From a virus, in IMG/VR virus record IMGVR_UViG_3300027704_000015, positions 1 to 64,000 of that record: a stretch of 64,000 nt of DNA; one strand, 5' to 3'. Shown here piece by piece: positions 1-21,990 of this stretch. Both the position numbers and the translations under genes were made by a program. The notes below the pieces were generated by a model. The model was given only the letters and a program-made list of their open reading frames with translations. It did no database searches and was not told where the DNA came from. The first letter of the stretch is position 1, and each line of letters starts with the position of its first letter.

Positions 1-483
1 GTAGATGAAGGTCTTTGGGCCAATATAAATGCTAAAAAGAAACGAGGTGGTAAATCAGCACCTAAAGGTTCTAAAGCGTATAAAGCAGCAAAAAAAGCTG
101 GTGGTAAGTTAGAGAAGACTAAAGAGTCAGTTATCTATAGAAATGAAGCACTTAAATTAGAAATAATTGAATCCTCTGAACCTATACTATTCCAAGAAGC
201 TGAGTACCAAGGACGTAAAGTAAAGCTTAATAAACCAATGCGTGGTGATACTAAGAAATTTAAAGTATATGTTAATACTGGTAAAAAAACTGCTGATGGT
301 GGAATTAAAGTAAAAAAAGTTAATTTTGGTCACGGTGGTACATCAGCTAAAAAGGCAGGTGAAAAGACAATGAGTATTAGGAAATCAAATCCTAAAGCAA
401 GATCTTCATTTCGAGCTAGACATAAATGTGCTACCCCAGGACCTAAAGATAAAGCTAGGTACTGGAGTTGCAGAAAATGGTAA
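1..483 (+). CDS. 5'-truncated basic modular virion protein (probable internal head protein)
   Basis: Frame 1 is open from base 1 (VDEGLWANINAKKK...FQEAEYQGRKVKLNKPMRGD...ARYWSCRKW); Lys-rich modules bounded by Glu sites. Confidence 0.6.
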   Translation, partial: VDEGLWANINAKKKRGGKSAPKGSKAYKAAKKAGGKLEKTKESVIYRNEALKLEIIESSEPILFQEAEYQGRKVKLNKPMRGDTKKFKVYVNTGKKTADGGIKVKKVNFGHGGTSAKKAGEKTMSIRKSNPKARSSFRARHKCATPGPKDKARYWSCRKW

Positions 484-875
484 TCAAGTTAAAGGATTTA
501 CTATTTGAAAGATTCGATAGACAATCTGTAGTAGATAAAGTATACCCGCAGATAGTAAAGAATTTAGGTAGAGCAAGAAGAGGTACCCCTAAAGTAGAAT
601 TTCACAGCAATATATATGTAAGGATTACAGGCATTGAAGGTATGGAAGGTGAAGCTAATCCACATGCAGAATATGATTGGGAAAACAATAAGATCTATTT
701 GTATACACCTAGGATGACTAACGAAAAAGAAATTATCAAAGGATTGTTACACGAATATACACATGCAACTCAAGATCCAAAGAAAATGGACAAGTATCGT
801 GAGTTAGGTTACAAGAAGAATCCTTACGAAATAGCAGCATCAAGAGCAGAAAAGAACTGGCGAAAGTATACATGA
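477..875 (+). CDS. Leader-bearing zincin-like metallopeptidase
   Basis: ATG 477 gives MVIKLKDLLFE leader; HEYTH (HExxH) plus downstream NPYE. Confidence 0.65.
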   Translation: MVIKLKDLLFERFDRQSVVDKVYPQIVKNLGRARRGTPKVEFHSNIYVRITGIEGMEGEANPHAEYDWENNKIYLYTPRMTNEKEIIKGLLHEYTHATQDPKKMDKYRELGYKKNPYEIAASRAEKNWRKYT

Positions 876-2053: not shown

Positions 2054-3454
2054 ATGAAATTTAACATTAAAAACTGGCAAGACAAACACTTAATCAAGGA
2101 ATCTAAATTGAAAGAAATGGATTTCAAAGATAAAGCTGCGTTTGATAAATATCAATCTAAACTTAAAACTAAAATGCGAAAGTCTACCAAAGTAAACATT
2201 GCTGGTAAAGATACTACAGCTGGAGATGCTACTGGAGACGGAAAATCAGCAAGTAAATCAGTTGCACCTTCAACAAATGGTAAAGAGCTATCAGATTTAG
2301 TAAATAATTCTCTAGCTGATTTTGATGGAGAGGGTTATGAAGAAGAAGCAATGGAACAGCTGGATCAATTATTTCAAGATACAGGAGCTTATGGTAAAGA
2401 AGAACTAACATATGAAGATGGTATGAAAGCAATCCAGGATCTTGATAACTACCAGGATGGGGAAGGGATTCATAATGATGAGGATGAAGCTTATGATGCA
2501 AAACTAGAAATGCAGGACCAACTTCAGACGCTTTTTGATGAACCTGAAGGTGGATGGACCAATGACAATAAGGGAAATGTAAAAGCTGATGGCAGTAGTC
2601 ACGATTATGAAGAACTATCTAGAACCACAAAATCATCTCAGACAGGAAGATTTGATGACGATGACGAGGAAGGTGATGACGGTGGAGAACAGCCAGCACC
2701 AGAAGCATCGAATGAATTTGATGGTAACTATGATGGGAAGAAGTACATAGACCCGAAAGAATTAAACGCCGATAACGTAGGCGATTATGATAAGAGTTGG
2801 GCAGGTGAATTTACAGATAACACGAGTGAAACGTATAGTAAAGATACTGCAAGATTAATAATGCGAGGTTTTGCTTGGAACGATCAAGTAGATGGTAAAG
2901 ATTTTAAAGTTAATTTTGCAAAAGATGGGTCAGTTAGTATTAAAACACTAAGTGATAAGGCAAAGAGATTAACGACTGATTCAATGAACGACCCATATAA
3001 GACTGTATATGATGAGAATCCTAGTAAGTATTCAAGACTTCCAAAAAAATCTGTTACTTCAGGAGAACGCAAATACACTGGTGATTACAGTGACCGCGAG
3101 CAAGGTGAAAATTTTAGTGATGGATTTTTTGATGATGTAGAGAAGGAACTTGGACAGACATATAGTTTAGATAAAAAAAATAAAAGGAAATTAAAAAAAG
3201 ATTTATATTATAATGCAAATTCTAAATTTGCTCAAGCAGCAATTGATGCAAAACTAGCTGGTAAAGAGCCTCCAACTGCAACTGCAAGAGACTTCGCTTT
3301 GGAAATAGAAAAGACTCTTAATTATAATAACCAAGTTAAAGATGGTGTTACGCTTACATCTAAAAAAGAATCTGTTACACCTCGATCCACAAGAATACAA
3401 GAAGCAAAGATATATCGAACTATTCAAGAGCTAAAAGGGTTAGAGAAAAAGTAA
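2054..3454 (+). CDS. Acidic putative internal head protein, paralogue 1
   Basis: FNIKNWQDKH leader; N-terminal RKSTK..GK.TTAG module; C-terminus shared with next gene. Confidence 0.55.
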   Translation: MKFNIKNWQDKHLIKESKLKEMDFKDKAAFDKYQSKLKTKMRKSTKVNIAGKDTTAGDATGDGKSASKSVAPSTNGKELSDLVNNSLADFDGEGYEEEAMEQLDQLFQDTGAYGKEELTYEDGMKAIQDLDNYQDGEGIHNDEDEAYDAKLEMQDQLQTLFDEPEGGWTNDNKGNVKADGSSHDYEELSRTTKSSQTGRFDDDDEEGDDGGEQPAPEASNEFDGNYDGKKYIDPKELNADNVGDYDKSWAGEFTDNTSETYSKDTARLIMRGFAWNDQVDGKDFKVNFAKDGSVSIKTLSDKAKRLTTDSMNDPYKTVYDENPSKYSRLPKKSVTSGERKYTGDYSDREQGENFSDGFFDDVEKELGQTYSLDKKNKRKLKKDLYYNANSKFAQAAIDAKLAGKEPPTATARDFALEIEKTLNYNNQVKDGVTLTSKKESVTPRSTRIQEAKIYRTIQELKGLEKK

Positions 3455-3487
3455 TATGCTATTCAATATTAAAAACTGGCAAGACAA
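3368..3487 (+). repeat. ~120-bp direct repeat spanning gene junction (copy 1)
   Basis: gaatctgttacacctcgatccacaagaat...attaaaaactggcaaga recurs at 4782-4901. Confidence 0.9.
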
Positions 3488-4868
3488 GCACCTTATTACA
3501 GAGCTAGATTTCAAAAATCAAAAAGCTTTTCAGAAATATGATGCTGAAAATAAGATACGTAAATCAACTAAAATAACAGTTGGTGGTAAATCAACTACAG
3601 CAGGGGAACAAGGTGGTGGTACATCAAACGGTAAAAAAGCAGCTAAAGCAGGATCTAAAAAACAGCCCGTTTTTCACCACACCGATCTTACTAATTTAAG
3701 ATGGAAAACACTAAATAGAGGAACAGAAAGGGTATTCAAAAGGGAAGCTATTCCTGTGCTGAACGACATGCTAGATGATGTTATAGATAATTATGATGGT
3801 AACTTAGAAGATTATAAAGAAAACGGAATGTCTAATATGCCTCCTAATATAGAGAAAGGATTAGATGCTTTGCATAAAATATCTGCAGACGGAGGTTCTT
3901 CAACTGATGTTGATTCTTTTATGAAAACAGCTTATGATCAAATAGAGCAACATCTTGCTCCCAAAGAACCCCCATCTCCTAAAACTGCTTTTTCAATGAA
4001 AAGCGGAGCAATTGATGGAAACACTTTTGAAAAAATGGTACCTGAGCTCAAAGGATATATAACTAGACAGAGTGACGAAGGAAGGGCAGATCTTATGGCA
4101 TCTGGACTCAAATCAGCAGGTGTATACGGGAAAGGTAACGTAACACTTGCAGACGCAGAAAAAGCAGTCGATAATATATCTCTTGATGACATACAAGCTT
4201 ATCATGATAAGTACAAAATTACTAGTGAAACACCTGATGTTGCAAAAACGGAAATGAAAGATGATCTTAAAAGATTGTTTGATCAAGAACATCGACTCAA
4301 TAAGCAGTTTAAAGTAGCAGCTGGAAACCCACTTGAATTTTCTTATGCTACTGGAGAGAGGATCCCAGGTTGGGCGAATGATCCAAATGGAGGGGAATAC
4401 AAAGTAGGTCCTGAAAATTTACCTGGATATGACATTTCACAAGCTAAGATGTCTACACAAGAAGCAGAGTGGGCAAGAATGGATGCAGTAGGTGGAGAGA
4501 AAGAATATAATAAACAAGCTAAAAAGCTAAAATTCAAAGATGGTCAACTCGTGTCAAAAGTTAGTGATGAAAAAGCTGGATTCAAATTTACAGGAGGTAA
4601 TCCTGATTTTAATGGTAAAGATAATTACGGTGAGGAAGGTGAAGCTGAAATAATTACCATGGCTTCTAAAGTTGAAAAGGGTGAAATTGAGCAATCTGAA
4701 ATGGATAAAAGCTTACATCCTGAAGATCCAAGAATGTCAGATCAAGGTAGAAAAAAAGAACTCGCATCTCAAAATTATGATGAATCTGTTACACCTCGAT
4801 CCACAAGAATTCAAGAAGCAAGGATATATCGAACTATTCAAGAATTGAAAGCTTTAGAGAGAAAGTAA
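3456..4868 (+). CDS. Putative internal head protein, paralogue 2
   Basis: Same leader, N-module and C-terminal ESVTPRSTRIQEA.IYRTIQELK as 2054..3454. Confidence 0.55.
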   Translation: MLFNIKNWQDKHLITELDFKNQKAFQKYDAENKIRKSTKITVGGKSTTAGEQGGGTSNGKKAAKAGSKKQPVFHHTDLTNLRWKTLNRGTERVFKREAIPVLNDMLDDVIDNYDGNLEDYKENGMSNMPPNIEKGLDALHKISADGGSSTDVDSFMKTAYDQIEQHLAPKEPPSPKTAFSMKSGAIDGNTFEKMVPELKGYITRQSDEGRADLMASGLKSAGVYGKGNVTLADAEKAVDNISLDDIQAYHDKYKITSETPDVAKTEMKDDLKRLFDQEHRLNKQFKVAAGNPLEFSYATGERIPGWANDPNGGEYKVGPENLPGYDISQAKMSTQEAEWARMDAVGGEKEYNKQAKKLKFKDGQLVSKVSDEKAGFKFTGGNPDFNGKDNYGEEGEAEIITMASKVEKGEIEQSEMDKSLHPEDPRMSDQGRKKELASQNYDESVTPRSTRIQEARIYRTIQELKALERK

Positions 4869-4901
4869 TATGCGATTTAACATTAAAAACTGGCAAGATA
4901 A
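4782..4901 (+). repeat. ~120-bp direct repeat spanning gene junction (copy 2)
   Basis: Matches 3368-3487 at offset 1414. Confidence 0.9.
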
Positions 4902-5130
4902 AACCTTAAACGAAGCTCCAGCTGTGAGAGGTCTTGAAAAACTTAAAGATAACTACTACGGTATATCAGATGAAATATATGATATTCAGACCAATGTAAA
5001 AAATGTGTTGGGTACTATGGAAGGTGAAGAATGGGTTAAGAGTAAAAATATTGATATGTCAAAAGAAGCAAAACTGTTTAAGCAGATAGAAAAATTATTC
5101 AACCAAAGTAAATTAGGAAAGCATTTATAA
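4870..5130 (+). CDS. Small leader-bearing protein
   Basis: MRFNIKNWQDKTLNE leader. Confidence 0.55.
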   Translation: MRFNIKNWQDKTLNEAPAVRGLEKLKDNYYGISDEIYDIQTNVKNVLGTMEGEEWVKSKNIDMSKEAKLFKQIEKLFNQSKLGKHL

Positions 5131-5131
5131 T

Positions 5132-7990
5132 ATGGAAAAAATAACAGACTTACTAATGAAGTTGAATGAGATTTCCTTTAAATCAGCTGAAGAGTTGAAG
5201 AGGTATAAAGCTAAACATAAAATGCGAGATACTACTAAGGTAACTATTGGTGGTAAAGAAACGACAGCAGGGGAAGCAGAGCCAAAAGCTGATACAACAC
5301 CAAGAAAAGCAGATGGTAGTGTAGATTGGGATGCAATTGCAAATGATCCAAGTAATGTACATGCTAAAGGAACACCACAAGCTGGTGAAGATGATGGTTA
5401 CTTTAATGATGAGGATCATGAAGATGGAAGTAGAGGGACAGGAGTAACAGATGGTGAGAAGAAAGCAGAGCCATCACAAGCTCAGAAAAATGTTAAAAAA
5501 TATCCATCGATGCAAGATGCTGAATCTATAATGGATCAATTTCAGGAAGATGGTTTAGAGAAAGGTGTAGACTATGAAGAAACAACTGCATATGGAGACG
5601 ATGTACCAAACGAAATAGTAGCTTTATCTGATAAAGCTAAAGAGATAGTTGATCAGTATGATGACGAAGATGAAGATTCTGGTGATGAAGGTAGATCTAA
5701 CGATGATCCAGAACTCAGTACAAAAGAAAAATCTCCATATGGGGCTAAACAGAAAGGTATTGGTGCAGGAGGTGATAATTTAACTGGACCTACTTCTGAT
5801 GAGAATTCAGTGTCTGGAGATGCAAAAGCTGAAAAGAAAGTTCTAGAGAAGTTAAGATCTATTACAAAAGATAATGATGTTGATTTATGTTCTATAGCAG
5901 TACCTGGCACTAATCTATTTTGTGCAGGTAACAAACAGATACCTCGTGATGAAATGCCACAATTAAAATCTACAGTAGTTGCAGGTGGTAAAGCTGATGA
6001 ACTAGTTAAAGCTGGTAAGTTAGACATAGATGCTAAAACAGGTGAAGTGAATACTGAAGATCTATTCAAATCGATGCTAGAGAAGGAAGGTATCACAATG
6101 AAAGATCCTGAACCTAGACAGGTAACTTCATTGAAAGCTACTCAAAATCAATTGGTAGGATCAAAAGTTAATATGTTTGCTAAAGTTCTTGCAGGTGATC
6201 AACCTTTTGAAGGTAAAGAGTTACCAGCAGAAGATCTTAAAAAATGGCAAGATGCATTACGAGAACCTATCATAGCTTCTAAAGATGGGTATATACTAGA
6301 TGGTCATCACAGATGGGCAGCTCTTGTTCAGCATGATATAGCAAATGGTGGTACAGGGGATGTTGAAATGGATGTGAAAGAGGTTGATATGGGTGCTACT
6401 GACCTAGTAGATAAAACTAACAAATTTACTAACGATATGGGATTAGCAACTAAATCAGGTGGTAAAGCTAAAGCTACTAAACCTCAATCAAAAATGGACA
6501 AGAGAATTGCTGCTATGCGAGCTCAAGGTATGTTCGGTAAAAAAGAAAAGAAAGAAGGTATTATGAAACTTGCACAGATAATAGAAGAAGAACTTATTGC
6601 AGAACTTAAAGAACGTAATAATCCAGATGATGGAAAAGCTGCTCCTTATGGTTCAGGTTACAACAAAGTAAATGAAGCTAAAGATCGAAAATTGGACAAA
6701 CTATTTCAACGATCTAGAGCTGTTACTTCAAAAAGTGGTGAAGATAAATTATACAAACTATCACAAGACTGGGAAGACTGGAATGTTGATAACGATGATA
6801 AATACGATGATTTAGTAGATCATTTATTTGCAGCAGTTGAACTTGTACAAGACGCTGGTGTTCCTGGTAAAAACAATGTAGTAGCAGATAAGGAATATTA
6901 TAGCTATATGAAATCAGCTGACAAACATCTTAAAACATTTACTAAAGATGTTACAAAAGCAATGAAATTGCATAAAGAAGGTAAATTAAATGAAGATGGT
7001 CATATGGATATACCATCAGCTATCAGAAAATGTAAAGTTATTATAGATGGAGCTCAAGATATCATGGAGAAGTTGGGTGGAATGTCTCAAGAGCAAGATG
7101 ATTTACCATCTTGGTGGATGGACAAAGTAACTCTTGCTACTGATTATATCAATAAAGCAGACGATTATATCAACAATAGTGGTCAGATAAATGATGAAAA
7201 ATTAACGGAAGGTAAACCAATCCCAATGGATACTCCTAATGAATTTGCTTATCTAGACTTTAAAAAATATGTTTATCAGAAACGTAGTATGTTCAAGAAA
7301 GAAATGATGAAGCATGTAAGGAAATCTGACGGACAATCTGATAGCAGTAGAATGTTTAGAACACTATCAGCATTATGGTTTAAATGGGCATATCATAAAG
7401 CTAGAGACTTTAGACATATTAAAGACGATCAAAAATTTGGTAGAGCTTTAATGGTAATGATGGTTAAGGATGATTTAATATTTGATAAGAAAGCTTGGAA
7501 GAAGGATAACAATATGACTCACATTAAAGAGTCAAGAGATCCAGCATCAATTCGAAAAGAATATAAAGAACTTAAAAAACAATCTATAAGTAATCTACGA
7601 CAGGAATGGAGTAGAATGAACAAAGTAGGTAATCCTAATAGTTTAGATAAAGAAGGTTTAGTGTCAGATATATTAAGACAGAGACATGGCGGTAAACATA
7701 TAGATAAAGCTTTTGAAGGTAACGTAACTGAAGCAACAGACTTATGGAAAAAGTTTGATGAGAAGCAAAGATTATACGGTGATGGGATGGATATAGAAAA
7801 CGATCTAAAAAACATCACAGCAACCATCAAACAACTACATAAAAATATGGAACAGGAAGCTGAACCAGAAGGTGGTAAGATAGCTGATAAATATGGTAGG
7901 CAGCTCGATAAATATGAAAAGATGTATAAGAAAAGAAAATCTGATCTTAAAAAGGTTTTTTCTAAAATAGACAAATTAGAGCAATACTAA
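5132..7990 (+). CDS. Multi-module polyprotein with ParB/Srx-like domain
   Basis: LKATQ...PIIASKDGYILDGHHRWAA ParB-N motif; internal linkers EGKLNE, EKLTE, EGNVTE. Confidence 0.7.
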   Translation: MEKITDLLMKLNEISFKSAEELKRYKAKHKMRDTTKVTIGGKETTAGEAEPKADTTPRKADGSVDWDAIANDPSNVHAKGTPQAGEDDGYFNDEDHEDGSRGTGVTDGEKKAEPSQAQKNVKKYPSMQDAESIMDQFQEDGLEKGVDYEETTAYGDDVPNEIVALSDKAKEIVDQYDDEDEDSGDEGRSNDDPELSTKEKSPYGAKQKGIGAGGDNLTGPTSDENSVSGDAKAEKKVLEKLRSITKDNDVDLCSIAVPGTNLFCAGNKQIPRDEMPQLKSTVVAGGKADELVKAGKLDIDAKTGEVNTEDLFKSMLEKEGITMKDPEPRQVTSLKATQNQLVGSKVNMFAKVLAGDQPFEGKELPAEDLKKWQDALREPIIASKDGYILDGHHRWAALVQHDIANGGTGDVEMDVKEVDMGATDLVDKTNKFTNDMGLATKSGGKAKATKPQSKMDKRIAAMRAQGMFGKKEKKEGIMKLAQIIEEELIAELKERNNPDDGKAAPYGSGYNKVNEAKDRKLDKLFQRSRAVTSKSGEDKLYKLSQDWEDWNVDNDDKYDDLVDHLFAAVELVQDAGVPGKNNVVADKEYYSYMKSADKHLKTFTKDVTKAMKLHKEGKLNEDGHMDIPSAIRKCKVIIDGAQDIMEKLGGMSQEQDDLPSWWMDKVTLATDYINKADDYINNSGQINDEKLTEGKPIPMDTPNEFAYLDFKKYVYQKRSMFKKEMMKHVRKSDGQSDSSRMFRTLSALWFKWAYHKARDFRHIKDDQKFGRALMVMMVKDDLIFDKKAWKKDNNMTHIKESRDPASIRKEYKELKKQSISNLRQEWSRMNKVGNPNSLDKEGLVSDILRQRHGGKHIDKAFEGNVTEATDLWKKFDEKQRLYGDGMDIENDLKNITATIKQLHKNMEQEAEPEGGKIADKYGRQLDKYEKMYKKRKSDLKKVFSKIDKLEQY

Positions 7991-8307
7991 TGATTAAATT
8001 AAAAAATATGTTAAACGAAGCAGGTGATCAATGGACAGTAAAAGATATTCTGGTATTGCAAAAAGCTCATGAGCGAGTATTGAAATCAACCAAATCATTA
8101 CAAAAAGCTGTAGCTGCATTAGATAAATTATCTATGAAAAATGCTAACAAGCCAAATGGTAAAATGTTTACTGCTGATTCAAGCAATATGCTTAAAGCAT
8201 TCAAGTCAGGGGTAATGCCAGGTAGTAAGTTTTGGAAAGGTTGGGAGGAATTTATGAAGGGTGCTGAAGCTGCATTTCCTAATAATTGGAAAAAGACAAG
8301 ATCATGA
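7990..8307 (+). CDS. Leader-bearing hypothetical protein
   Basis: MIKLKNMLNE leader. Confidence 0.6.
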   Translation: MIKLKNMLNEAGDQWTVKDILVLQKAHERVLKSTKSLQKAVAALDKLSMKNANKPNGKMFTADSSNMLKAFKSGVMPGSKFWKGWEEFMKGAEAAFPNNWKKTRS

Positions 8308-8582
8308 TAAAGCTTAAAGATATATTAAGCGAAGCTAAAGTAAAAACTATAGATATATGGTTTGAGGAAAGCCGTGGAAGATTTTATAAAGTAATAATCA
8401 ATGGTAATAGAGCTCCAAGAGAATGGAGTAGTTGGAAAGATGCACAAGAGTCTTTAACTAAATTGCTAGGTTGGACGATTTATTTAAGATCGATAGATCA
8501 TGATGAGTTAGATAAAGCTGCTAAACAATTAAAAAAGCAAGGTATCAAACTAACTTATGATGAATCAATGGATGTATCCTAA
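8304..8582 (+). CDS. Leader-bearing hypothetical protein
   Basis: ATG 8304 (ATGA overlap with previous stop) gives MIKLKDILSE. Confidence 0.6.
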   Translation: MIKLKDILSEAKVKTIDIWFEESRGRFYKVIINGNRAPREWSSWKDAQESLTKLLGWTIYLRSIDHDELDKAAKQLKKQGIKLTYDESMDVS

Positions 8583-8608
8583 AACCTACTGTATTCCTTA
8601 AGCAACAG

Positions 8609-8625
8609 CTATTTATTATAGATAA
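8609..8625 (+). promoter_or_regulatory. Candidate late promoter CTATTTATTATAGATAA
   Basis: Identical 17-mer at 21323-21339; both intergenic and upstream of virion-type genes. Confidence 0.5.
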
Positions 8626-8695
8626 ATCCTGGTACTGTACCAGAAGAGTTCAACTAACTACCGAGTAAATACTCGATGATCTTCGGAGAAACAAG

Positions 8696-11029
8696 ATGCA
8701 AGAATCTAAGCTAAGAAACTTAGTACGTCAAGAAATTATAAACAAGCTTGATACAATTACAGAAGGTAAAGATCCTTTTGTTCCAACCTACGGAAAAGGT
8801 GATGTCGTTCATGACTGCCCAAAACACGTCCAAGAAATCAACACAGGTATTAAAGGTAAAGTAACTGGTCACACTCTTAATGAGTCTGGTGTAGTTAACT
8901 TTGTAGATGTAGATTTCGGTACAGGAAAGGTGTTTGAAAACATTCCAACAAAGAAATTAAAAATATTAGAGATGCAAGAGCATGCTCACAATATAAAAGA
9001 AGAACCAATCACAGGTGCAGGTAAAGATGAGGTTGTTACTGAAGAAGGTGATAGATGTGATTGTGCATTAGCACATCCAGGTATATCCCATAGAGCTTAT
9101 AATAGTCAACAACTTGCTGAAGAAATAAAAGTGTTAACTAGAACACCTAATCAAAATGGGTCATCATTAGGATACAGGTTGACTCAAAAACAACACAAAA
9201 AAATGTTAGCATTCTTGAAAAAGAATAAAAATCAACCAAGTGTTAAGGAACTACTTGCTACATTAAAAGATAAATACTCTGATGCAGTTGGTATTGTAAT
9301 GGATGGTAAAGTATTTTTTGTATATGCTCAATATGGTCAGTTAAGAATTGGAACAGGAGGAAAGGCTTCAGAATGGAATCAAGATGCATCAGCATCTCTT
9401 ACTAAATACATTGGTGAAGCTGTTCTACTTGAAAAAGTAACTCCAAGACAAGTATCAAAAGCATTTAGCGATATATCCAAATTATCTATGGAAATGATAG
9501 AAAATCTACAGAAATATAAAGCTGCCAAGAAATCAGGTAATGAAGCTGATATTAAAAAATATATTAAAATTGCAGGAACATTAAGTAAACAAAAGCGTTC
9601 AATGGAAGCTGCAATGGAGAAAATGATCACTCAACTAGATAAAGATGTTGAGTATATAGGTGAAGGCAAAATAAACGAAGCTCCAATGGATAAAAGATTT
9701 GCAAAAGAATGGGAAAGAAATTGTAAAGTTTTATTGACTCACATTAAACATGAGGAATCTAAAAAGAACAGAGAAAATTTTAGACTGTTAAATAATTTAA
9801 CAAATCAAGTAAAAGATGCAATGAATGTACCTGCTATGTTATCTAAGATAGTTGGAATGCAGGAAGGTAAATTAGCTGAAGCTACTATATTAGCTAATGT
9901 TTATTATATAGACTCAGAAGGATCAGCAGTGCCTGAGCACGAGCTTGCTGGAAGATCCAAAGGAGGTCCAAATTTTCTTTACATAAAAAAAGGAACAAAA
10001 GGAACATACAACGGGGACGAGTTCGAAAGTGAAGAAGGTTCGAATGTCTATATTAACAAAAGATATATAAGAGAATCTAAAACTCGATTAACTGAAGCAT
10101 TTGCATCAACTAAACTTGGTCAACTATTTGGAAAAGTATCCAAGTATAGCAATGATAAAAACTTTTTATCCGGTATGGCGAAGAGTTATGGACTTGAATG
10201 GGATAAAATTACAGACGACCAAGTAAAAGGTCCAGACACAAAATTAGATCGAAAAGGTATCGATTTAATTGTAGCTACTCAAGATGTTAATTTAGCAGCT
10301 ACAACAACGTATGATTGGACAACTTACATCAAAAAAGGTCAATTGCTAGGTGCAACCATAAAAGGTAAACGAGTATGGACAGGTAGATTTGGTGTATCAA
10401 CAGGTGCAGGTAAAAATAGAAACTTTATTGGATTAGAAAAACGTGGATACTCTAACGTAAAAAGCGTTCTATCAATTACCGGAGCAGTAGTTTATCATAT
10501 AGATCCTGAATTAAAATCACGTGGTGCAAAAGATAAAGTTGCATCAAGAGCAGAAGCTAAAGCTGGTGCAACTGCACTTATGTCTGCTAGAGATATAAAA
10601 GATAAAAACAGAAGAACGTATGAAGCAGCATTAAAGGTTCGTGTTGGAGCAGAAGGCAAAGGAGGTCTAATCAAGATGATTGAACAAGCTACCAAGTTGT
10701 ATGAAAAAGTATTGAAAGAGAAACTTAATATGCTTAAAAAAGGAATGGTTTCCACTGAACATTGGAACAATGATTCATGGAGCACAGTTTCTAGAGCACA
10801 TCAACAAATGATTAGAGATTTTCAGTACTGGATGAGAGAAGCTGCTGACCAGGAAGCACAAGCTAAAAAGGATGGGGGTAATGATGCTTCAGGAGGTGTT
10901 GATTATATGCAAAAACAAATGAATCAATATGCTTTGAATATAAAACAGGAATTTGGTAAAATGAATATCGCACTTAAAAAGATTGATAAAAGTAAAGAGT
11001 ATTCTAAGATTGAAGGTCGAGCTTATTAA
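8696..11029 (+). CDS. Multi-module polyprotein (putative internal head protein)
   Basis: Linkers ITE, VTE, LAE, EGKINE, EGKLAE, RLTE separate unrelated segments. Confidence 0.55.
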   Translation: MQESKLRNLVRQEIINKLDTITEGKDPFVPTYGKGDVVHDCPKHVQEINTGIKGKVTGHTLNESGVVNFVDVDFGTGKVFENIPTKKLKILEMQEHAHNIKEEPITGAGKDEVVTEEGDRCDCALAHPGISHRAYNSQQLAEEIKVLTRTPNQNGSSLGYRLTQKQHKKMLAFLKKNKNQPSVKELLATLKDKYSDAVGIVMDGKVFFVYAQYGQLRIGTGGKASEWNQDASASLTKYIGEAVLLEKVTPRQVSKAFSDISKLSMEMIENLQKYKAAKKSGNEADIKKYIKIAGTLSKQKRSMEAAMEKMITQLDKDVEYIGEGKINEAPMDKRFAKEWERNCKVLLTHIKHEESKKNRENFRLLNNLTNQVKDAMNVPAMLSKIVGMQEGKLAEATILANVYYIDSEGSAVPEHELAGRSKGGPNFLYIKKGTKGTYNGDEFESEEGSNVYINKRYIRESKTRLTEAFASTKLGQLFGKVSKYSNDKNFLSGMAKSYGLEWDKITDDQVKGPDTKLDRKGIDLIVATQDVNLAATTTYDWTTYIKKGQLLGATIKGKRVWTGRFGVSTGAGKNRNFIGLEKRGYSNVKSVLSITGAVVYHIDPELKSRGAKDKVASRAEAKAGATALMSARDIKDKNRRTYEAALKVRVGAEGKGGLIKMIEQATKLYEKVLKEKLNMLKKGMVSTEHWNNDSWSTVSRAHQQMIRDFQYWMREAADQEAQAKKDGGNDASGGVDYMQKQMNQYALNIKQEFGKMNIALKKIDKSKEYSKIEGRAY

Positions 11030-12987
11030 TGACCAATATAACTAAGATAAAAAATGCTATTAAACGTAAAGTAAATGAATCACGTTTACGTGATAAAGTA
11101 TCTTCTATTTTAGATGATGCATTACCAAATATACTTGCAGAGATCGATCAATTAGATCAAGCATTTATAAACGCAACGCCTACAAAAATTAATGTTTTTA
11201 AAAATTCCAAGAAGGAGGCGGACGATCCACTTGATATTAATAAAGTACAAATTGTTGATGAAGGTGGTACACCTTTACAAAACAAAGTATATGATGCAGT
11301 TACTGGTATGAGTATAAATGGTAAGGATAGTTTCGAAAGTAAATTTGCTGTCAGACCAGGTAAATTAAACGACTTTGTATTCAGATTATCTGATAGAGAC
11401 GCAACAGGTATATTGAAACTTATCAAACAACGTAAATTCGAAAGTATCAAAGAGTTAGACGTAAGAAAAACTCATGGTGATAAACGAATAGAAAATCCTG
11501 CAACTGGAAATGATATAAAACTTCGTACAGCTTTAAAAGCTAAAAAAGGTTCAGCAGTGTATGCTAAAGGTAAATCAATGTATAATGCATTAAAAGACGA
11601 ACCTACTAATGAAGGTAAAATAACTGAAGACTACTCTCAACGAGCAAGAAATTTTAGAGTTAACCTTAGAAAAAGACTTATAGGTATGAAAAAAGGTCAA
11701 AAGGTTAGCTATGGTAAAGCTCAATATGTAAAGATGGTTGATGGAAATTTTCAAATTCCGAAAACAGGTAAAGTGTACGGTGTAGAAGATATAGTACAAG
11801 CAATGAAACGTGCAGTACAGCCAGATATAATGAAACATAGAGGTGTAGCTGGTGCAGACATGGTTAATGCTTATCTGAAATTTGAAGGTAAATTAACTGA
11901 AGCTAAAGGTGGATGGGCTTTATATATTGACGGGAAGAAAATCAAATCATTTAGATCGAAGAGGGAAGCACTACGAGCATTACAACTCGTACAGTTATCT
12001 GATAACTCAGTTGAACTTAAAAAAGAAGGTAAATTAACTGAAGTTTCATGGCCAGGCCCTTCTTTAAAAGATTTAGGTATGTCATCTTCAGTTAGCAAAC
12101 GTAGAGCTGGAGCTGAGTTAAAACAAAAGCTTGCAGGTAAACGTTCCGATGGAATGGGTAAATATACAGCTACTATCTACGGTATGAATGGTAGTAAAAG
12201 AGTTGAATTAAAAAGCTTGAATGATCTAAATAAATTTAGTAAGTTTGAATTAGATGAAGGTAAATTAACTGAAGCTGCAAAATATAAAAAAGGTCAAAAG
12301 GTAACCTTTCAAATGGATAAAGGTGGTGCTAGACCATTAAAGCCTACTACTGGTACAATATCAAAAGTACAAAGAAAAGGTAATTCTTATCTCTATACAA
12401 TAGTTGATAAGCTTGGACCAACTCCTGTATATGAACCAGAAATTACAGGCCTTGCAGAAACTAAAGGGGCTCCTAAAGGACATTACTTCACTGCATCAGG
12501 TAATGTAGTTAAAGGTAGCTTATCTAAAGCAGCTAAATCAAAAGGTGCAAGGTTAAGTGATCCTAAAGACAAACAACGATCTAAAGTACCTAAAGCAACT
12601 CAAGTAAATGAAGCAGAAGAATACAAATATAAAAAGTATGTTGCAAAAGCATTTAAAGATATAAAAGATGCAACATTTAACTTTAGAAATGCAATGGGCG
12701 TTAAGCAATTAGGTCAATCCGATCCTAAAGTAAAGAAGCAGCTAGAATCATTACATAAAGCTTTATTTGCTTTGGAAAAAGACTTCAAAGGTAAAGGTTT
12801 AACAGAAGGTGAGATACACGAAGATAGATTCGGCCACCCTATTACATCACAGGGTAATCAGACGTATATCCAATTGGAAAAACTAATAAAAATGCTTTCT
12901 GGTAAGGAAAAACGTGATGCAGAAAAAGCTTTCCGTACAATGTGGAGTAAGATAAAAACAGCAATGGAAGAAGAGGAGCAAAAATGA
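11029..12987 (+). CDS. Multi-module basic polyprotein (putative internal head protein)
   Basis: EGKITE, 3x EGKLTE, GLAE, QVNE, EGEIHE linkers. Confidence 0.6.
   Translation: MTNITKIKNAIKRKVNESRLRDKVSSILDDALPNILAEIDQLDQAFINATPTKINVFKNSKKEADDPLDINKVQIVDEGGTPLQNKVYDAVTGMSINGKDSFESKFAVRPGKLNDFVFRLSDRDATGILKLIKQRKFESIKELDVRKTHGDKRIENPATGNDIKLRTALKAKKGSAVYAKGKSMYNALKDEPTNEGKITEDYSQRARNFRVNLRKRLIGMKKGQKVSYGKAQYVKMVDGNFQIPKTGKVYGVEDIVQAMKRAVQPDIMKHRGVAGADMVNAYLKFEGKLTEAKGGWALYIDGKKIKSFRSKREALRALQLVQLSDNSVELKKEGKLTEVSWPGPSLKDLGMSSSVSKRRAGAELKQKLAGKRSDGMGKYTATIYGMNGSKRVELKSLNDLNKFSKFELDEGKLTEAAKYKKGQKVTFQMDKGGARPLKPTTGTISKVQRKGNSYLYTIVDKLGPTPVYEPEITGLAETKGAPKGHYFTASGNVVKGSLSKAAKSKGARLSDPKDKQRSKVPKATQVNEAEEYKYKKYVAKAFKDIKDATFNFRNAMGVKQLGQSDPKVKKQLESLHKALFALEKDFKGKGLTEGEIHEDRFGHPITSQGNQTYIQLEKLIKMLSGKEKRDAEKAFRTMWSKIKTAMEEEEQK
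11611..12274 (+). repeat. Dispersed 19-bp in-frame repeat gaaggtaaattaactgaag
   Basis: Exact at 11884, 12025, 12256; one mismatch at 11611, 9863, 6977. Confidence 0.9.
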
Positions 12988-13466: not shown

Positions 13467-14008
13467 TGATTAAACTAAAAGACCTATTAAACGAAGATAG
13501 AATGGACCAAACTAAGATGTTTGATACATCTACAGTTAACAAGATAGCTACTGATATTAAAAAGCTAGCTAACTGGAAGAAGGAACAGTATGGTAATCAA
13601 TCATTCGACTACAGTGAATTTAGATTTGGTGATGGATCAGGAGGATTTTCTTTCAAATGGGCACATGCAAGAAATTGGGGTGGACAGATTGGAGTAAGCT
13701 TCGGTAAAGATGGTAATCATAAGTATTACTCTTATAGCCACTATGATAAAAAATATACTGGAAGTACTACAACAAACAGTATGAAGCCATTCAAGTTCAA
13801 AGGTAATCCTAAGGTATGGAAAGACTTTACAAACGATCATCTTCTACAGTTTTGGAAGAAAGTTAAAGGTGAGATCAAGAAGAACGAAGCAGGTGCTAAA
13901 GCAGCATTAGATGCAGAGGCAAAAGCACAAGCAGCACACTATGGTGCAAAAGCTGATACTGGTAGGATAGGTTACGGGCTATCATCACAACCAAGAAGAG
14001 GAAGATAA
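13466..14008 (+). CDS. Leader-bearing hypothetical protein
   Basis: MIKLKDLLNE leader. Confidence 0.6.
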   Translation: MIKLKDLLNEDRMDQTKMFDTSTVNKIATDIKKLANWKKEQYGNQSFDYSEFRFGDGSGGFSFKWAHARNWGGQIGVSFGKDGNHKYYSYSHYDKKYTGSTTTNSMKPFKFKGNPKVWKDFTNDHLLQFWKKVKGEIKKNEAGAKAALDAEAKAQAAHYGAKADTGRIGYGLSSQPRRGR

Positions 14009-14292
14009 TGATTAAATTAAAAGACATAATAAACGAAGTAAATAAATCAGATGTAAAGTATGCTATGAAAATGGCATTTGATAGTATACCAGGTAACTGG
14101 CATAAAGCTCTTAAAAAAGTCGATACCCAAGGTAATACGATTAAACTAAATATGTCTTCTTATATGGGTCCTGGTAAAACACTTCAAAAGATTGTAGATG
14201 AATTTAATAGTTCAATGGGTACTAAATATAAAATTGATAAAGACTCGTTTGTAAAAGGCAGTATTACAAGTATAGAGTTACGAGAAAAATAA
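14008..14292 (+). CDS. Leader-bearing hypothetical protein
   Basis: MIKLKDIINE leader. Confidence 0.6.
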   Translation: MIKLKDIINEVNKSDVKYAMKMAFDSIPGNWHKALKKVDTQGNTIKLNMSSYMGPGKTLQKIVDEFNSSMGTKYKIDKDSFVKGSITSIELREK

Positions 14293-14304: not shown

Positions 14305-14694
14305 ATGGATAAGTATATTTATAAAGCAAAGTTAGATAGAGTAGTTGATGGTGATACTGTTGACGCTATGATAGATGTAGGATTTGATATATGGGTTAAA
14401 AAAAGGATACGCTTTATGGGTGTTGATGCTTGGGAATCTAGAACAAGAGACTTGGAAGAAAAAGCAAAAGGACTTGCAGCGAAGGCAAGAGTTATAGAAT
14501 TGCTAGAGGAAACATCATCTAAACCAGGGTATTTTAGATTGAAGTCACATGGTGTTGGAAAATACGGAAGAGTTCTTGGTGAACTATTCATACAAGATGA
14601 GGAAGGAAAACAATACAATATAAATGAACAATTAAAAATCGAAGGTCATGCTTATGAATACTTCGGAGGTAAAAAACAAATATTCAAGGGATAA
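14305..14694 (+). CDS. Thermonuclease (SNase-like) family protein
   Basis: RVVDGDT, IRFMGVDAWE, GKYGRVLG motifs. Confidence 0.85.
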   Translation: MDKYIYKAKLDRVVDGDTVDAMIDVGFDIWVKKRIRFMGVDAWESRTRDLEEKAKGLAAKARVIELLEETSSKPGYFRLKSHGVGKYGRVLGELFIQDEEGKQYNINEQLKIEGHAYEYFGGKKQIFKG

Positions 14695-14697
14695 GTT

Positions 14698-17600
14698 ATG
14701 AAAAAGTTATTATTATTACTGGCACTATTGCCAACAATGTTATTAGCACAAAATAATAGCTGGCTTAAGCTTGACATACAGCTAGACCAATGGCCGGAGG
14801 AAAACTGCTGGGAGTTAAGAGAATTTACTACAGATACTTTAATATATGATGCCTGTGGAGACCCTTATTTCCCTAATGAATTTATAGAATTATATATTCC
14901 ATTACCAGCAGGTCAATATATCTTTAATTTTGTAGATTCATATGGTGATGGATTATCTACTGCAATTCCTTCATACGCTTTAGTTTCAAATGAATGTCAA
15001 GATACTCTATCCTATGTACATGGATTTGGTACCTCTTATAATGGAAACGATTCACTTGCATTAGCTAATGGATGGACAATACCAGGAATCATTACTCAAG
15101 GTTTTACAAGTGCAGCAGAGTTAATTGATACATTAACACTTGCACCTTGCGCTCCACCAACTACTTTTATACCTGGTTGTATGGACCCTATTGCAGAGAA
15201 TTATGACTCATTAGTAACCGTACCTCAATGGGGATATTCAGACCAATCTATTTGTACATATATTATAGGATGTACAGACCCATCAGCATTAAATTATGAT
15301 ACAGTAGCAACTTTAGCTGATGATGGTTTATGTATGTACCCACCATGTGGTGGCTTTGATACAATATCGGCTTCACAAACATGTATGGGTAATCAAACAA
15401 CATTAACATTTGAATGGGAAACATCTCTAACTGCATGTGATGTTGGTGAAATACATTATGGTTACGATTTATCAGCTGCACCATTTGTTCAAAGTCAATG
15501 GTTTCAAGGTGATGTTCCGTTAGGAGCTACACCTCCTACTACACTAGCATACACTATATTTGAATGTAGTTACTTTAATTATAACTGGAATGTTTTTGAA
15601 GCTAAAGCAGGTGGTAATTTCGTAACACAAGATATACCACACTTCTTCTTTGTTAAATTTGGCATTGCCGGTAATTTCACGTACAGTGATACAACATGGA
15701 TAACACCAGAACATTGTATTGTTGGATGTACAGACCCAACATCTAGTCAATATAACCCATTTGCAAATATAGATGATGGTAGTTGTCAAAATAGTGGTAC
15801 GACATGTGGCCCTGATTCCACTACAATTAACATTATACTAACTCCAGATACATATTCTGGTGAAACATCTTGGGAACTTATAGATTCTACAACTACACCT
15901 CCTACAATAATAGCTTCAAGTCCATTATATAGTGGATTAACAGGTATACCTACATCAACAATAGTATGTGTTGATAGTACAATGAACCTAGTATTTAATT
16001 TATATGATTCTTTTGGAGATGGAATGTGTGGTTCATGTTTTGGAGAGGCTGATGGTGAAGTATTGATATTAGATGAATCATGTGGTGATACATTGTTCCA
16101 CTTAACTTCACCTAATATGAATTTTGGTGTTGAACTTAGTGAATCATTTGGATTTCTTAATACATGTGGAATTAATGCTAGTGTATACGGTTGTACTGAC
16201 CCCGCATACGTTGAGTACGACGAATCATTTTTGTACGATGATGGTTCATGTTTAACATTAAACATTTATGGATGTACAGACTCTACTGCATTAAACTATG
16301 ACCCTAATGCAAATACACAAATAAATACACCATCATGTAATTATACATTAAGATTAACAGATGGTGCTGGCGATGGTTGGTTCGGTTCTTATATTGGGAT
16401 AGTACAGGGAGATTCATTATATGGTCCTTACACTTTTAATAATGGTTTCTATAATGATTTTAATATAAATTTAACAACAACCGAAAAAGCTAAAATATAT
16501 TTTTATACTCAAGGTAATTCATCAGGGACAGCAAGTCAATGTGGGTTTAAGTTAATTAATCCAGATGACGTTGTTACGTTTGAGGCTGGAACAAACCCAT
16601 GGACAGATGCTATCGTTCCATTTCCAAAAGTATATACAGCAGAACAAGATTGTGGTAATACTTGTTTACCGTCAGTTTTAGGGTGTATCGATTCATTTGC
16701 ATTTAATTATGATTCTTTAGCTAATACAACAGACAGCTCATGTTATTATAATCCAGGATGTACTGATGCTGCTTATTTAGAATATCATACTCAAGGATTT
16801 ATCGCTGATTTTAATAATGGTTCATGTTTATCATACGCTATATTTGGTTGTATGGATATGACAATGTTTAATTATGACCAATACGCGACAGTTCAATGGA
16901 CAACAGTATTAAATGATACAACTCCTTGTATTGCAAAAATACTTGGTTGTTTAGACCCAACTGCTTTTAATTACGACCCACTAGCAAATACAGAAAATTA
17001 TTCATGTGTCCCATTTATATATGGATGTATGGATGCAACACAATTCAATTATGATCCATCAGCGAATACTGATAACGGATCTTGTTTACCTTATATACTT
17101 GGTTGTACAGACTCAACAGCATTAAATTATGATGCTTTAGCTAATACTGATAACGGAACATGCATCCCTTTCTTATATGGATGTACAGACTCTTTAGCTT
17201 TAAATTATAACTCATTAGCGAATACAGATGATGGTTCTTGCATATCAACTATACTAGGTTGTACTGATGTTAGTGCTTTCAATTACGATTCACTAGCTAA
17301 TACTGATGATGGAACATGCGTTCCATTTATCTATGGATGTACAGATGCTTCACAGTTTAACTATAATGCTTTAGCTAATTCAGATGATGGATCATGTATA
17401 CCATTTATTTATGGTTGTACAGACCCCTCACAATTCAATTATAATGCTACTGCAAATACTGATAACGGATCCTGTATCCCATTTGTTTACGGATGTTTAG
17501 ATTCATTAGCATTTAATTTTAACCCACTAGCTAATACTGATAACGGATCATGTACACCAATAATACTTGGTTGCACAGATACCGCAGCAATCAATTATAA

Positions 17601-21636: not shown

Positions 21637-21990
21637 ATGAGTAAAGAAAAATTTAGTATAAATAATTGGAGAAAGAAACGCGTACTTAAAGAAGGTGTAG
21701 GTGGAGTAGTTTCTAGAAATCCATTCAAAAAAATGCAAGGAATGTGGTTTACAGAAGCTGTAGATCATATTGATGATAAGGAAGCTGATACTGATTATGA
21801 TAATCTTGAGGATAAAGATGTTGATAATGATGGTGATCATGATGCTTCAGATAAATACCTTCATAAACGTCAAGGTAAAGTTGCTAAAGTAACTGAAAAT
21901 GAATTAGAAGAAGAAATGTCTGATGAAGAATTTAATATTCAAGAATGGCAAAAGAAGTTCCTTGATAAACGTAATTTGAAATGGGGATAA
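21637..21990 (+). CDS. Acidic leader-family protein with DxDxDGD (Ca-binding-like) motif
   Basis: FSINNWR at N-terminus and FNIQEWQKK at C-terminus; DVDNDGDHD. Confidence 0.55.
   Translation: MSKEKFSINNWRKKRVLKEGVGGVVSRNPFKKMQGMWFTEAVDHIDDKEADTDYDNLEDKDVDNDGDHDASDKYLHKRQGKVAKVTENELEEEMSDEEFNIQEWQKKFLDKRNLKWG

What the first reader, a model, noticed from the sequence alone, without database searches (positions are those of the whole stretch)
5132..12987. Polyproteins of small modules joined by EGK(L/I)xE protease-site linkers
Seen: three large ORFs (952, 777, 652 aa) consist of 30-130 aa segments separated by EGKLTE/EGKITE/EGKINE/EGKLAE/EGKLNE/EGNVTE and related (L/I/V)xE sites, the same ending as the N-terminal leaders. 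Known: T4-type prohead protease cuts after (L/I)xE. Inference: one gene is packaged and then cut into many small mature proteins, a viral-polyprotein strategy for in-capsid cargo.
Basis: partly seen in the sequence, partly recalled or inferred. Interest (0 to 1): 0.8.

Follow-up and report, generated by a model that had tools for sequence, protein, structure and literature searches.

The report
Phage head-cargo polyproteins with protease linkers
An uncultured marine relative of phage T4 strings small, freely reshuffled protein modules into three long proteins joined by a short peptide that fits the cutting rule of the T4-type head protease, so they are probably loaded into the capsid and cut apart there, though no cut or packaging has been measured.

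Summary
EGK(L/I/V)xE occurs 7 times in the three ORFs (0.03 expected) and nowhere else in the 80-kb record. In 411 homologues it occurs 274 times (2 expected).

Four sequence tests support the cut-site reading:
- Homology blocks begin and end at the (L/I/V)xE sites, and module order is permuted between phages.
- The triplet survives in front of a module whatever lies upstream, while look-alike triplets inside domains do not.
- Single modules exist elsewhere as stand-alone genes in which the 10-residue leader MIKLKDILNE abuts the same first residue as the linker does here.
- AlphaFold puts most tested sites in or beside low-confidence gaps between folded units.

A T4-type head protease (Peptidase_S77) was found in 9 of 10 related records. 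It is absent from this record, which is about half a genome.

P0003 is a true string of about ten basic 5-12 kDa modules. P0001 and P0002 are mostly large domains with a few small modules.

Cleavage, packaging and ejection are all unmeasured. I found no published description. The nearest are T4 internal proteins and Aravind's "polyvalent proteins". This scan has already noted the same arrangement in other genomes.

The parts
5132..7990 (+). P0001, 952 aa. Predicted products: 13-aa leader (MEKITDLLMKLNE|), a 502-aa acidic product with a ParB-like region, then five modules of 67-107 aa.
5849..6481 (+). ParB-like region of P0001 (about residues 240-450, DGHHR motif). This is a lead only.
   Evidence: phrog_2859 at E 7e-14. 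The nearest ESM Atlas clusters carry PF08857 ParBc_2, score 0.91. No Pfam or PDB sequence hit.
6659..6676 (+). P0001 junction YNKVNE|A (E515)
   Evidence: [LIVM]xE kept in 17 of 20 distinct upstream contexts
6977..6994 (+). P0001 linker EGKLNE|D (E621)
   Evidence: Homology blocks end at 617-621, but only 3 of 7 contexts keep the triplet.
7193..7210 (+). P0001 junction DEKLTE|G (E693)
   Evidence: 30 of 39 contexts. Stand-alone P0288 begins MKLKNILNE|GRPIPMD.
7514..7531 (+). P0001 junction MTHIKE|S (E800)
   Evidence: 14 of 20 contexts; homology blocks end at 799-801
7715..7732 (+). P0001 linker EGNVTE|A (E867), in front of the conserved C-terminal module that ends ...LEQY
   Evidence: 34 of 44 contexts
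7990..8307 (+). Small leader-bearing gene (MIKLKNMLNE|A), 105 aa
   Evidence: syntenic copy in L076
8304..8582 (+). Small leader-bearing gene. The likely true start is the ATG of MIKLKDILSE|A, not 8286.
8696..11029 (+). P0002, 777 aa. Predicted products: 23-aa helical leader, a 305-aa N-terminal product, two modules of 67 and 72 aa, and a 310-aa conserved C-terminal domain.
8696..8764 (+). P0002 leader ending ITE|G (E23)
   Evidence: 11 of 16 contexts; AlphaFold helix 3-21 followed by low pLDDT
9662..9679 (+). P0002 linker EGKINE|A (E328)
   Evidence: 24 of 24 contexts; inside the pLDDT<50 segment 313-331
9863..9880 (+). P0002 linker EGKLAE|A (E395)
   Evidence: 6 of 9 contexts; just past the pLDDT<50 segment 387-393, at the start of strand 394-398
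10079..10096 (+). P0002 junction KTRLTE|A (E467), in front of the C-terminal domain
   Evidence: 16 of 16 contexts; inside the pLDDT<50 segment 461-468. The domain is stand-alone with its own leader in L004, L093 and L095.
11029..12987 (+). P0003, 652 aa: a 38-aa leader region followed by nine modules of 47-104 aa. Seven of them have pI 9.6-10.4.
11437..11454 (+). P0003 junction FESIKE|L (E142)
   Evidence: 30 of 32 contexts, 7 of them N-terminal leaders
11611..11628 (+). P0003 linker EGKITE|D (E200)
   Evidence: 44 of 48 contexts. Stand-alone genes begin MIKLKDILNE|DYSQRARNF. In the model this site sits in the first turn of a predicted helix.
11884..11901 (+). P0003 linker EGKLTE|A (E291)
   Evidence: 10 of 15 contexts; AlphaFold pLDDT<50 at the site
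12025..12042 (+). P0003 linker EGKLTE|V (E338)
   Evidence: 9 of 15 contexts; AlphaFold pLDDT<50 at the site
12256..12273 (+). P0003 linker EGKLTE|A (E415)
   Evidence: 19 of 22 contexts; 22 homology blocks end at residue 410
12442..12459 (+). P0003 possible junction ITGLAE|T (E477); weak
   Evidence: P1 Glu is kept in 15 of 15 contexts, but P3 is L/I/V/M in only 6
12595..12612 (+). P0003 junction ATQVNE|A (E528)
   Evidence: 12 of 17 contexts
12790..12807 (+). P0003 junction GKGLTE|G (E593)
   Evidence: 5 of 5 contexts

Best explanation
The three ORFs are precursors of internal head proteins of an uncultured T4-like phage. The record is marine, and signal peptides and a type IX secretion (T9SS) substrate point to a Bacteroidota host. 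Proposed mechanism, step by step. (1) An N-terminal amphipathic leader ending in (L/I/V)-x-Glu directs the whole precursor into the prohead core, as the 10-residue capsid targeting sequence of the T4 internal proteins does. This is inferred. (2) When the gp21-type serine protease (Peptidase_S77) is activated in the prohead, it cuts after the Glu of the leader and after the Glu of each (L/I/V)-x-E linker. The commonest form is E-G-K-L-T/N-E followed by Ala. That the sites fit the rule is shown. That they are cut is inferred. (3) This would release about 19 products besides the three leaders. Fifteen of them are modules of 5-13 kDa, and most of those in P0003 are strongly basic. The other three are large products of 34-55 kDa, one with a ParB-like region. 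(4) The products stay with the packed DNA and probably leave with it at infection, like T4 IPI-III. This is inferred, and is the least certain step. The linker also acts as an evolutionary joint. Modules are swapped, permuted, fused and split exactly there, and in this genome its DNA is more uniform than codon usage explains.
For: Motif enrichment: 7 observed against 0.03 expected here, and 274 against about 2 expected in 411 homologues. There P3 is L 222, V 42, I 10; P2 is T or N; P1' is Ala in 147 of 274. This equals T4's own gp23 maturation site GSFLTE|AEI, which I read from NC_000866. It also fits the published L/I-X-E rule and the Glu-Ala bond of gp22 (PMC9026906). Module boundaries: homology-block ends cluster at the sites and module order is permuted among homologues. 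Conservation: the triplet is kept in front of a module under varied upstream contexts (30/32, 44/48, 19/22, 17/20, 30/39, 34/44, 24/24, 16/16). In-domain controls are not kept (VKE417 of P0001 16/82, VKE185 of P0002 2/14). Leader and linker are interchangeable. P0155, P0162, P0185, P0192, P0217 and P0220 are 97-177-aa proteins that start with MIKLKDILNE (or a close variant) directly followed by DYSQRARNF. P0185, P0192, P0217 and P0220 end at the module's end. Conversely, window genes 14008-14292 and 4870-5130 occur elsewhere as internal modules behind EGKLTE|. The C-terminal domain of P0002 is a stand-alone leader-bearing gene two genes after the protease in L004. AlphaFold places five of the seven sites tested in pLDDT<50 segments between folded units. 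The other two lie at the edge of an element (E395 of P0002, E200 of P0003). LKE675 of P0002 lies inside a confident helix. Peptidase_S77 was found at E 1e-31 to 1e-37 in 9 of 10 related records. These include G006, which shares tail genes with this phage, and the nearest cultured relatives, Flavobacterium phage immuto and Microcystis phage Mel-JY01. Relative G006 has a gp23-type capsid protein with QLVNE|A at the expected maturation position. Seven of the nine P0003 modules have pI 9.6-10.4.
Against: No protease, capsid or portal gene lies on this record. CheckV rates it 46% complete, so presence in this genome is extrapolated from relatives. I recovered no contig that carries both dense EGK linkers and the protease. 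No proteomic data exist for any relative. Some sites are weakly conserved: E621 3/7, E477 6/15, E338 9/15. The EGKITE site at E200 sits in the first turn of a predicted helix. The uniform linker DNA could by itself explain some of the motif's sameness. The modules match no known fold or family, so a cargo function is unsupported by annotation.
Confidence: 0.6

Rival explanations
1. The proteins are disposable prohead-core or scaffold components. They are cut at the same sites by the same protease, but mainly so that the pieces can be cleared to make room for DNA, as with T4 gp22, gp67 and gp68. They would not be delivered to the host as cargo.
For: T4 core proteins are cut into multiple fragments (PMC9026906). 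In relatives, leader-bearing genes lie directly beside the protease and scaffold genes. P0001 has a long acidic stretch (net charge -27 over residues 14-515).
Against: The modules are folded (pLDDT 85-93 for module C), mostly basic, highly diverse and freely permuted. Those are properties of T4 internal proteins rather than of conserved helical scaffolds. Relatives have a separate gp22-like acidic scaffold gene. Folded 5-13 kDa domains are unlikely to escape a closed shell; this last point is my inference.
Confidence: 0.15
2. The linker is only a flexible joint and a recombination hotspot. The proteins work uncut as multidomain 'polyvalent' proteins.
For: GAAGGTAAATTAACTGAAG is identical at three P0003 linkers. 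All five EGKL copies use GAA GGT AAA TTA, which codon usage predicts at about 0.12 per copy. Module swapping occurs exactly there.
Against: The triplet [LIVM]xE is kept where the upstream residues and codons differ (RKRLTE, DILNE, ESVVNE, KTRLDE and others). N-terminal leaders, which are not joints, end in the same triplet in front of the same module residue. A mere linker has no need for an invariant Glu with Ala preferred after it.
Confidence: 0.15
3. A different peptidase does the cutting, for example the small leader-bearing HExxH protein encoded at 468-875. This would follow the embedded zincin peptidase proposed for polyvalent proteins.
For: An HEYTH motif is present at residue 95 of that ORF. 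The zincin precedent is described in PMC5512222.
Against: The site logo equals the gp21 rule, including T4 gp23's LTE|A. None of the three ORFs has an HExxH motif. The HExxH ORF matches no Pfam or PHROG family.
Confidence: 0.05

Closest known systems
Phage T4 internal proteins IPI, IPII, IPIII and Alt: capsid targeting sequence plus gp21 processing (PMC9026906, PMC3012670)
   Same: A short N-terminal leader of about 10 residues ending in (L/I)-x-Glu. A gp21-family protease in the lineage. A highly diverse, exchangeable gene set with only the leader conserved. That the T4 products are small and basic is my recollection, not taken from these papers.
   Different: In T4 each internal protein is a separate gene with one cut. 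Here up to ten modules are concatenated in one ORF with a cut site at every joint. There is no sequence similarity to the T4 proteins, and nothing has been measured.
T4 prohead core proteins gp22, gp67 and gp68, which gp21 cuts into several fragments (PMC9026906)
   Same: Several L/I-x-E cuts in one polypeptide inside the prohead.
   Different: Those are scaffold-type core proteins (PMC9026906). As I recall, their fragments are mostly discarded. Here the pieces are folded, unrelated, shuffled modules that also exist as stand-alone genes.
Polyvalent proteins of phages and conjugative elements (Iyer, Burroughs, Anand, de Souza, Aravind 2017, PMC5512222)
   Same: Multidomain phage proteins in late or virion gene contexts, delivered with the DNA. 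ParB-like domains are among them, and the authors draw an explicit analogy to polyproteins.
   Different: Processing there is proposed to use an embedded zincin peptidase, and no defined linkers are described. Here the three ORFs have no embedded peptidase, the linkers are explicit and conserved and fit a trans-acting head protease, and the modules are much smaller.
Multi-cut propeptides of giant phages phiKZ, 201phi2-1 and SPN3US (PMC10052503, PMC9026906)
   Same: A gp21-related protease cuts after Glu at short motifs, several times per substrate.
   Different: There the cuts dismantle a long N-terminal propeptide and leave one mature C-terminal protein, and the motif is S/A-x-E. Here every segment looks like a product.

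Membership tests
T4-type head proteins with a capsid targeting sequence, processed by gp21 | The genome encodes a Peptidase_S77 (gp21-type) prohead protease | tested here: inconclusive
   No match in this 79,962-bp record, which CheckV rates 46% complete. Found above the Pfam cut-off in 9 of 10 related records.
T4-type head proteins with a capsid targeting sequence, processed by gp21 | A short N-terminal leader ending in (L/I)-x-Glu | tested here: met
   P0001 MEKITDLLMKLNE|, P0002 ...LDTITE|, P0003 ...KRKVNE| and ...NILAE|. At least eight neighbouring genes start with MIKLKDIL-x-E.
T4-type head proteins with a capsid targeting sequence, processed by gp21 | Cleavage after Glu of L/I-x-E in the prohead | not testable with these tools
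   Only the fit to the rule and the conservation of the sites could be shown.
T4-type head proteins with a capsid targeting sequence, processed by gp21 | Presence in the mature head and ejection with the DNA | not testable with these tools
   I found no virion proteome for any relative.
T4-type head proteins with a capsid targeting sequence, processed by gp21 | Sequence homology to T4 IPI, IPII, IPIII or Alt | tested here: not met
   No Pfam or PHROG family beyond one unnamed PHROG. P0003 finds nothing in 50,697 phage records.
Polyvalent proteins (PMC5512222) | Several unrelated domains in one phage polypeptide, in a late or virion gene context | tested here: met
   About 10, 7 and 5 units including the leaders. 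Order is permuted among homologues, and in relatives the genes lie beside head genes.
Polyvalent proteins (PMC5512222) | An embedded zincin-like peptidase (MPTase) for self-processing | tested here: not met
   No HExxH motif in P0001-3. A separate 135-aa HExxH gene lies at 468-875.
Polyvalent proteins (PMC5512222) | Signature domains such as the DdrB-like ParB domain | tested here: inconclusive
   DGHHR motif and ESM Atlas neighbours carrying PF08857 ParBc_2 at 0.91. No Pfam hit at E 0.1 or below and no PDB sequence hit.

The most novel reading that the evidence does not exclude
Marine (and, from this scan's other notes, rumen and freshwater) T4-like phages run a general 'cargo kit' system. 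Any small protein can be delivered to the next host by placing it behind a (L/I/V)-x-E site, either as its own leader-tagged gene or as one bead in a polyprotein. One leader then loads a whole string in fixed ratio, and the head protease releases pieces small enough to pass the tail channel. The protease site doubles as the recombination joint that lets phages trade modules. This would be a true polyprotein strategy in a double-stranded DNA phage.
Probability: 0.45. Interest if true: 0.75.

Novelty: new variant of a known kind. Interest (0 to 1): 0.6.

Why it matters
If the linkers are cut, T4-type heads can load many more kinds of protein than gene counts suggest. The head protease would also be the release device of a polyprotein system, which has not been described for tailed phages. 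The module families are large. P0001 alone finds 2270 cluster representatives, and almost all are unannotated. A rule that marks them as injected proteins would give a starting point for finding early-acting anti-defence or host-takeover factors in marine Bacteroidota phages. The leader-plus-linker grammar could also be reused to load several proteins into T4-like capsids from one construct.

Tried and rejected
- Whole P0003 found nothing in viral contigs by pattern or in cultured phages by megablast or tblastn.
- Pfam and PHROGs gave no usable family for P0002, P0003 or the neighbouring small genes.
- MAFFT alignments of whole shuffled homologues (A1, A2) were misaligned because module order differs. 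I did not use them for folding. I used a module-level alignment (A3) and the collinear P0002 family (A4) instead.
- Foldseek against the PDB gave no significant match for either model. There were only weak SH3-like hits for a beta module of P0002.
- The single metagenome scan returned mostly contigs under 10 kb. A local S77 profile found no protease on them, and their records are not held for the genome search. So co-occurrence of EGK linkers and the protease on one contig is not shown.
- I looked for co-variation between the linker motif and the capsid protein's maturation site across lineages. The capsid site reads (L/I)V-x-E|A in all three lineages, so the test is uninformative.
- I considered joining the record's open ends into a circle. 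The frames do not match, so I dropped it.
Full report
**What the window is.** The window is the first 64 kb of a 79,962-bp linear IMG/VR virus record that CheckV rates 46% complete. Nearly all genes are on the + strand and GC is about 34%. Thirteen tail and baseplate genes at 61.6-77.8 kb are syntenic with two cultured phages, at 24-53% amino-acid identity. These are Flavobacterium phage vB_FspM_immuto (160 kb) and Microcystis phage Mel-JY01 (190 kb). Both carry a T4-type head module: large terminase, gp20 portal, gp21 protease and gp23 capsid protein. So this is half the genome of an uncultured T4-like phage. Bacteroidota-type signal peptides suggest the host.

**The observation.** The three ORFs and all listed hexamers are present. 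EGK[LIVM]xE occurs 7 times in 2381 residues. Shuffling gives 0.03 on average and at most 2, and the other 21,348 residues of the record hold none. Counting all conserved junctions gives five in P0001 (Glu515, 621, 693, 800, 867). P0002 has three (Glu328, 395, 467) plus the leader end at Glu23. P0003 has eight (Glu142, 200, 291, 338, 415, 477, 528, 593) plus leader ends at Glu17 and Glu38. P0003 is therefore a string of nine modules of 47-104 aa. P0001 is a 502-aa product followed by five modules. P0002 is two large domains of 305 and 310 aa flanking two small modules.

**Relatives.** P0003 has 254 near-length and 194 shorter homologues, and P0001 has 2270 cluster representatives. The listed sources are almost all metagenome assemblies (many Tara or labelled marine) and nearly all are unnamed. 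Matches cover single stretches of 8-30% of the query at 60-100% identity, which is the signature of module exchange. In the 411 proteins collected, EGK[LIVM]xE occurs 274 times against about 2 expected. P3 is L 222, V 42, I 10. P2 is T or N. P1' is Ala in 147 cases. Another lineage (P0110, on contigs up to 265 kb) joins the same modules with ESVNE, ESVVNE or ESVVTE instead. The gene cluster itself recurs on several marine contigs with different module sets. Its order is a P0001-like gene, small leader genes, a P0002-like gene, a P0003-like gene, a 129-aa endonuclease and a large secreted protein.

**Test 1: are the sites module boundaries?** Starts and ends of homology blocks pile up at the sites. 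In P0003 this is at 138-145, 195-200, 291-293, 333-344, 410-415, 477-481, 521-534 and 593-598. In P0001 it is at 512-513, 617-621, 690-691, 799-801 and 862-866. In P0002 it is at 324-328 and 391-398. Module order is permuted in many homologues. That is hard to reconcile with one cooperative multidomain fold.

**Test 2: is the triplet selected independently of its surroundings?** For each site I collected every distinct upstream context in homologues that share the downstream module. [LIVM]xE is kept in:
- 30/32 contexts at Glu142, 44/48 at Glu200 and 19/22 at Glu415 of P0003;
- 17/20 at Glu515, 30/39 at Glu693 and 34/44 at Glu867 of P0001;
- 24/24 at Glu328 and 16/16 at Glu467 of P0002.

The residues before the triplet vary (EGK, RKR, DQG, EEE, ESV, leader sequences). 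Look-alike triplets inside domains are not kept: VKE417 of P0001 16/82 and VKE185 of P0002 2/14. Weaker sites are Glu621 (3/7), Glu338 (9/15) and Glu477 (6/15, though Glu itself is kept 15/15).

The module that follows NEGKITE| in P0003 begins DYSQRARNF. In other phages it occurs as proteins of 97-177 aa that begin MIKLKDILNE|DYSQRARNF or close variants (P0155, P0162, P0185, P0192, P0217, P0220). Four of them stop exactly where the next linker would begin. The reverse also holds:
- Window gene 14008-14292 (MIKLKDIINE|VNKSDVKYAMK) is an internal module behind EGKLTE| in P0252.
- Gene 4870-5130 is the last module of P0054, behind EGKLTE|.
- The C-terminal domain of P0002 (behind KTRLTE|) is a separate gene with its own leader in L093 and L095.
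- In L004 it lies two genes after the protease.

Leader and linker are therefore equivalent devices in front of the same first residue.

**Test 4: structure.**
- For P0003 residues 190-345 (29-row alignment, mean pLDDT 77), AlphaFold gives a confident module C (residues 197-286, pLDDT 85-93). It also gives a small beta-beta-alpha-beta module D (residues 294-332).
- Both EGKLTE linkers, at 286-291 and 333-338, fall in segments below pLDDT 50.
- The EGKITE site at Glu200 sits in the first turn of the module's first helix, in a low-confidence block.
- For full-length P0002 (22 rows, mean pLDDT 61), the leader is a helix (3-21).
- In that model, Glu23, Glu328 and Glu467 lie in segments below pLDDT 50. 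Glu395 lies just after one, at the start of a strand.
- The in-domain LKE675 is inside a confident helix.
- Neither model matches a solved fold significantly.

**The protease.** Peptidase_S77 (PF03420) is absent from this half-genome. It is present above the Pfam cut-off, at E 1e-31 to 1e-37, in 9 of 10 related records:
- four IMG/VR records that share module E of P0003;
- three that share module B, including G006, which also shares tail genes with this phage at 34-54% identity;
- immuto and Mel-JY01.

In L004 the order is modular protein, two small ORFs, terminase, portal, two genes, protease. Then come genes beginning MKKFNIKEWRDKYLTE and MKLKDLLSE, the two leader types seen in the window. 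The published rule for gp21 is a cut after Glu of L/I-X-E, first seen at a Glu-Ala bond (PMC9026906). T4's own capsid protein reads GSFLTE|AEI at residue 65, which matches the -LTE|A core of the commonest linker here. The gp23-type protein of relative G006 reads QLVNE|A at the equivalent place.

**Likely mechanism.** Steps shown: the sites exist, fit the protease rule, sit between independent modules and are interchangeable with leaders, and the lineage has the protease. Steps inferred: the leader loads the precursor into the prohead core, the protease cuts at every site, and the pieces stay with the DNA and are ejected. Seven of the nine P0003 modules are basic (pI 9.6-10.4) and all are 5-12 kDa. 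From my own knowledge, this resembles T4 IPI* at about 8.5 kDa, which PMC9026906 describes as compact enough to pass the portal while folded. One leader would load a whole string in fixed ratio, and cutting would yield pieces able to pass the tail channel. That rationale is my inference. P0001 carries a ParB-like region (DGHHR motif; ESM Atlas neighbours with PF08857). That domain type is common in the virion-delivered polyvalent proteins of PMC5512222.

**The joint as DNA.** GAAGGTAAATTAACTGAAG is identical at three P0003 linkers. All five EGKL copies use GAA GGT AAA TTA, for which codon usage predicts about 0.12 per copy. This agrees with the separate first-reader note on a 19-bp repeat. It suggests the site also serves as microhomology for module exchange. 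It does not replace the protease reading, because the triplet is kept where codons and neighbours differ.

**Rivals.**
- Same cuts, but the pieces are disposable core material like gp22, gp67 and gp68 (0.15).
- An uncut multidomain protein with a recombination-prone linker (0.15).
- A different peptidase, for example the leader-bearing HExxH gene at 468-875 (0.05).

**Known or new.** The library search found the T4 capsid targeting sequence and internal protein literature, the giant-phage multi-cut propeptides and the polyvalent-protein paper. It found no description of module strings joined by prohead-protease sites. The library is limited to open-access papers, so absence is not proof. This scan's own notes report the same arrangement in several other uncultured T4-like phages. 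This window is therefore a further, clean example with a well-sampled marine family, not the first sighting. I rate it a new variant of a known kind.

Noticed in passing
window 11884-11902, 12025-12043, 12256-12274: Three P0003 linkers share 19 identical bases (GAAGGTAAATTAACTGAAG). All five EGKL linkers of the three ORFs use the same four codons, beyond what codon usage predicts. This may be microhomology for module exchange.
   Followed up: partly
window 468-875: A 135-aa ORF with an HEYTH motif at residue 95 and a leader-like MVIKLKDLLFE. The true start is probably the ATG at 477. It matches no Pfam or PHROG family. It could be a packaged zincin-like peptidase.
   Followed up: partly
window 8286-8582: The longest ORF starts at a TTG, but the ATG at 8304 gives the standard leader MIKLKDILSE|A. 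The syntenic copy in L076 has the same layout.
   Followed up: partly
P0371 (residue 229) and P0407 (near its KMQFNIKKWQNEYL stretch): In other phages a complete leader (MIKLKDVLNE, or MQFNIKKWQNEYL...INE) sits inside a longer ORF. These look like relics of gene fusion that now serve as internal linkers.
   Followed up: no
window 14305-18894; loci L080, L074, L095: The cargo-gene cluster is followed on several marine contigs by the same 129-aa endonuclease (phrog_452) and then, directly or after a few small genes, by a large signal-peptide protein. This points to a conserved larger locus.
   Followed up: partly
window 8765-9121 (P0002 residues 24-142): A Cys/His-rich stretch (HDCPKH, CDCALAHPG) is nearly invariant among homologues but was not folded by AlphaFold (pLDDT about 26-37). 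It may be a metal-binding region.
   Followed up: no
window 21637-21990: This 117-aa ORF has a leader-like KFSINNWRKKRVLKE|G at its start and a second leader-like EEFNIQEWQKKFL near its C-terminus, just before the next leader gene at 21992.
   Followed up: no
window 2054-5280: The ORFs at 2054 and 3456 share with P0001 a short N-terminal module after different leaders (47-52% identity over about 40 residues). P0411 carries the same module behind a P0002-type leader, so leaders themselves are exchangeable.
   Followed up: partly
record 77922-79961 (L001 17922-19961) and window 1-483: The last ORF of the record runs off its end and the first ORF of the window is open at its 5' end. Their frames do not join, so the record is a fragment and not a permuted circle.
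   Followed up: partly
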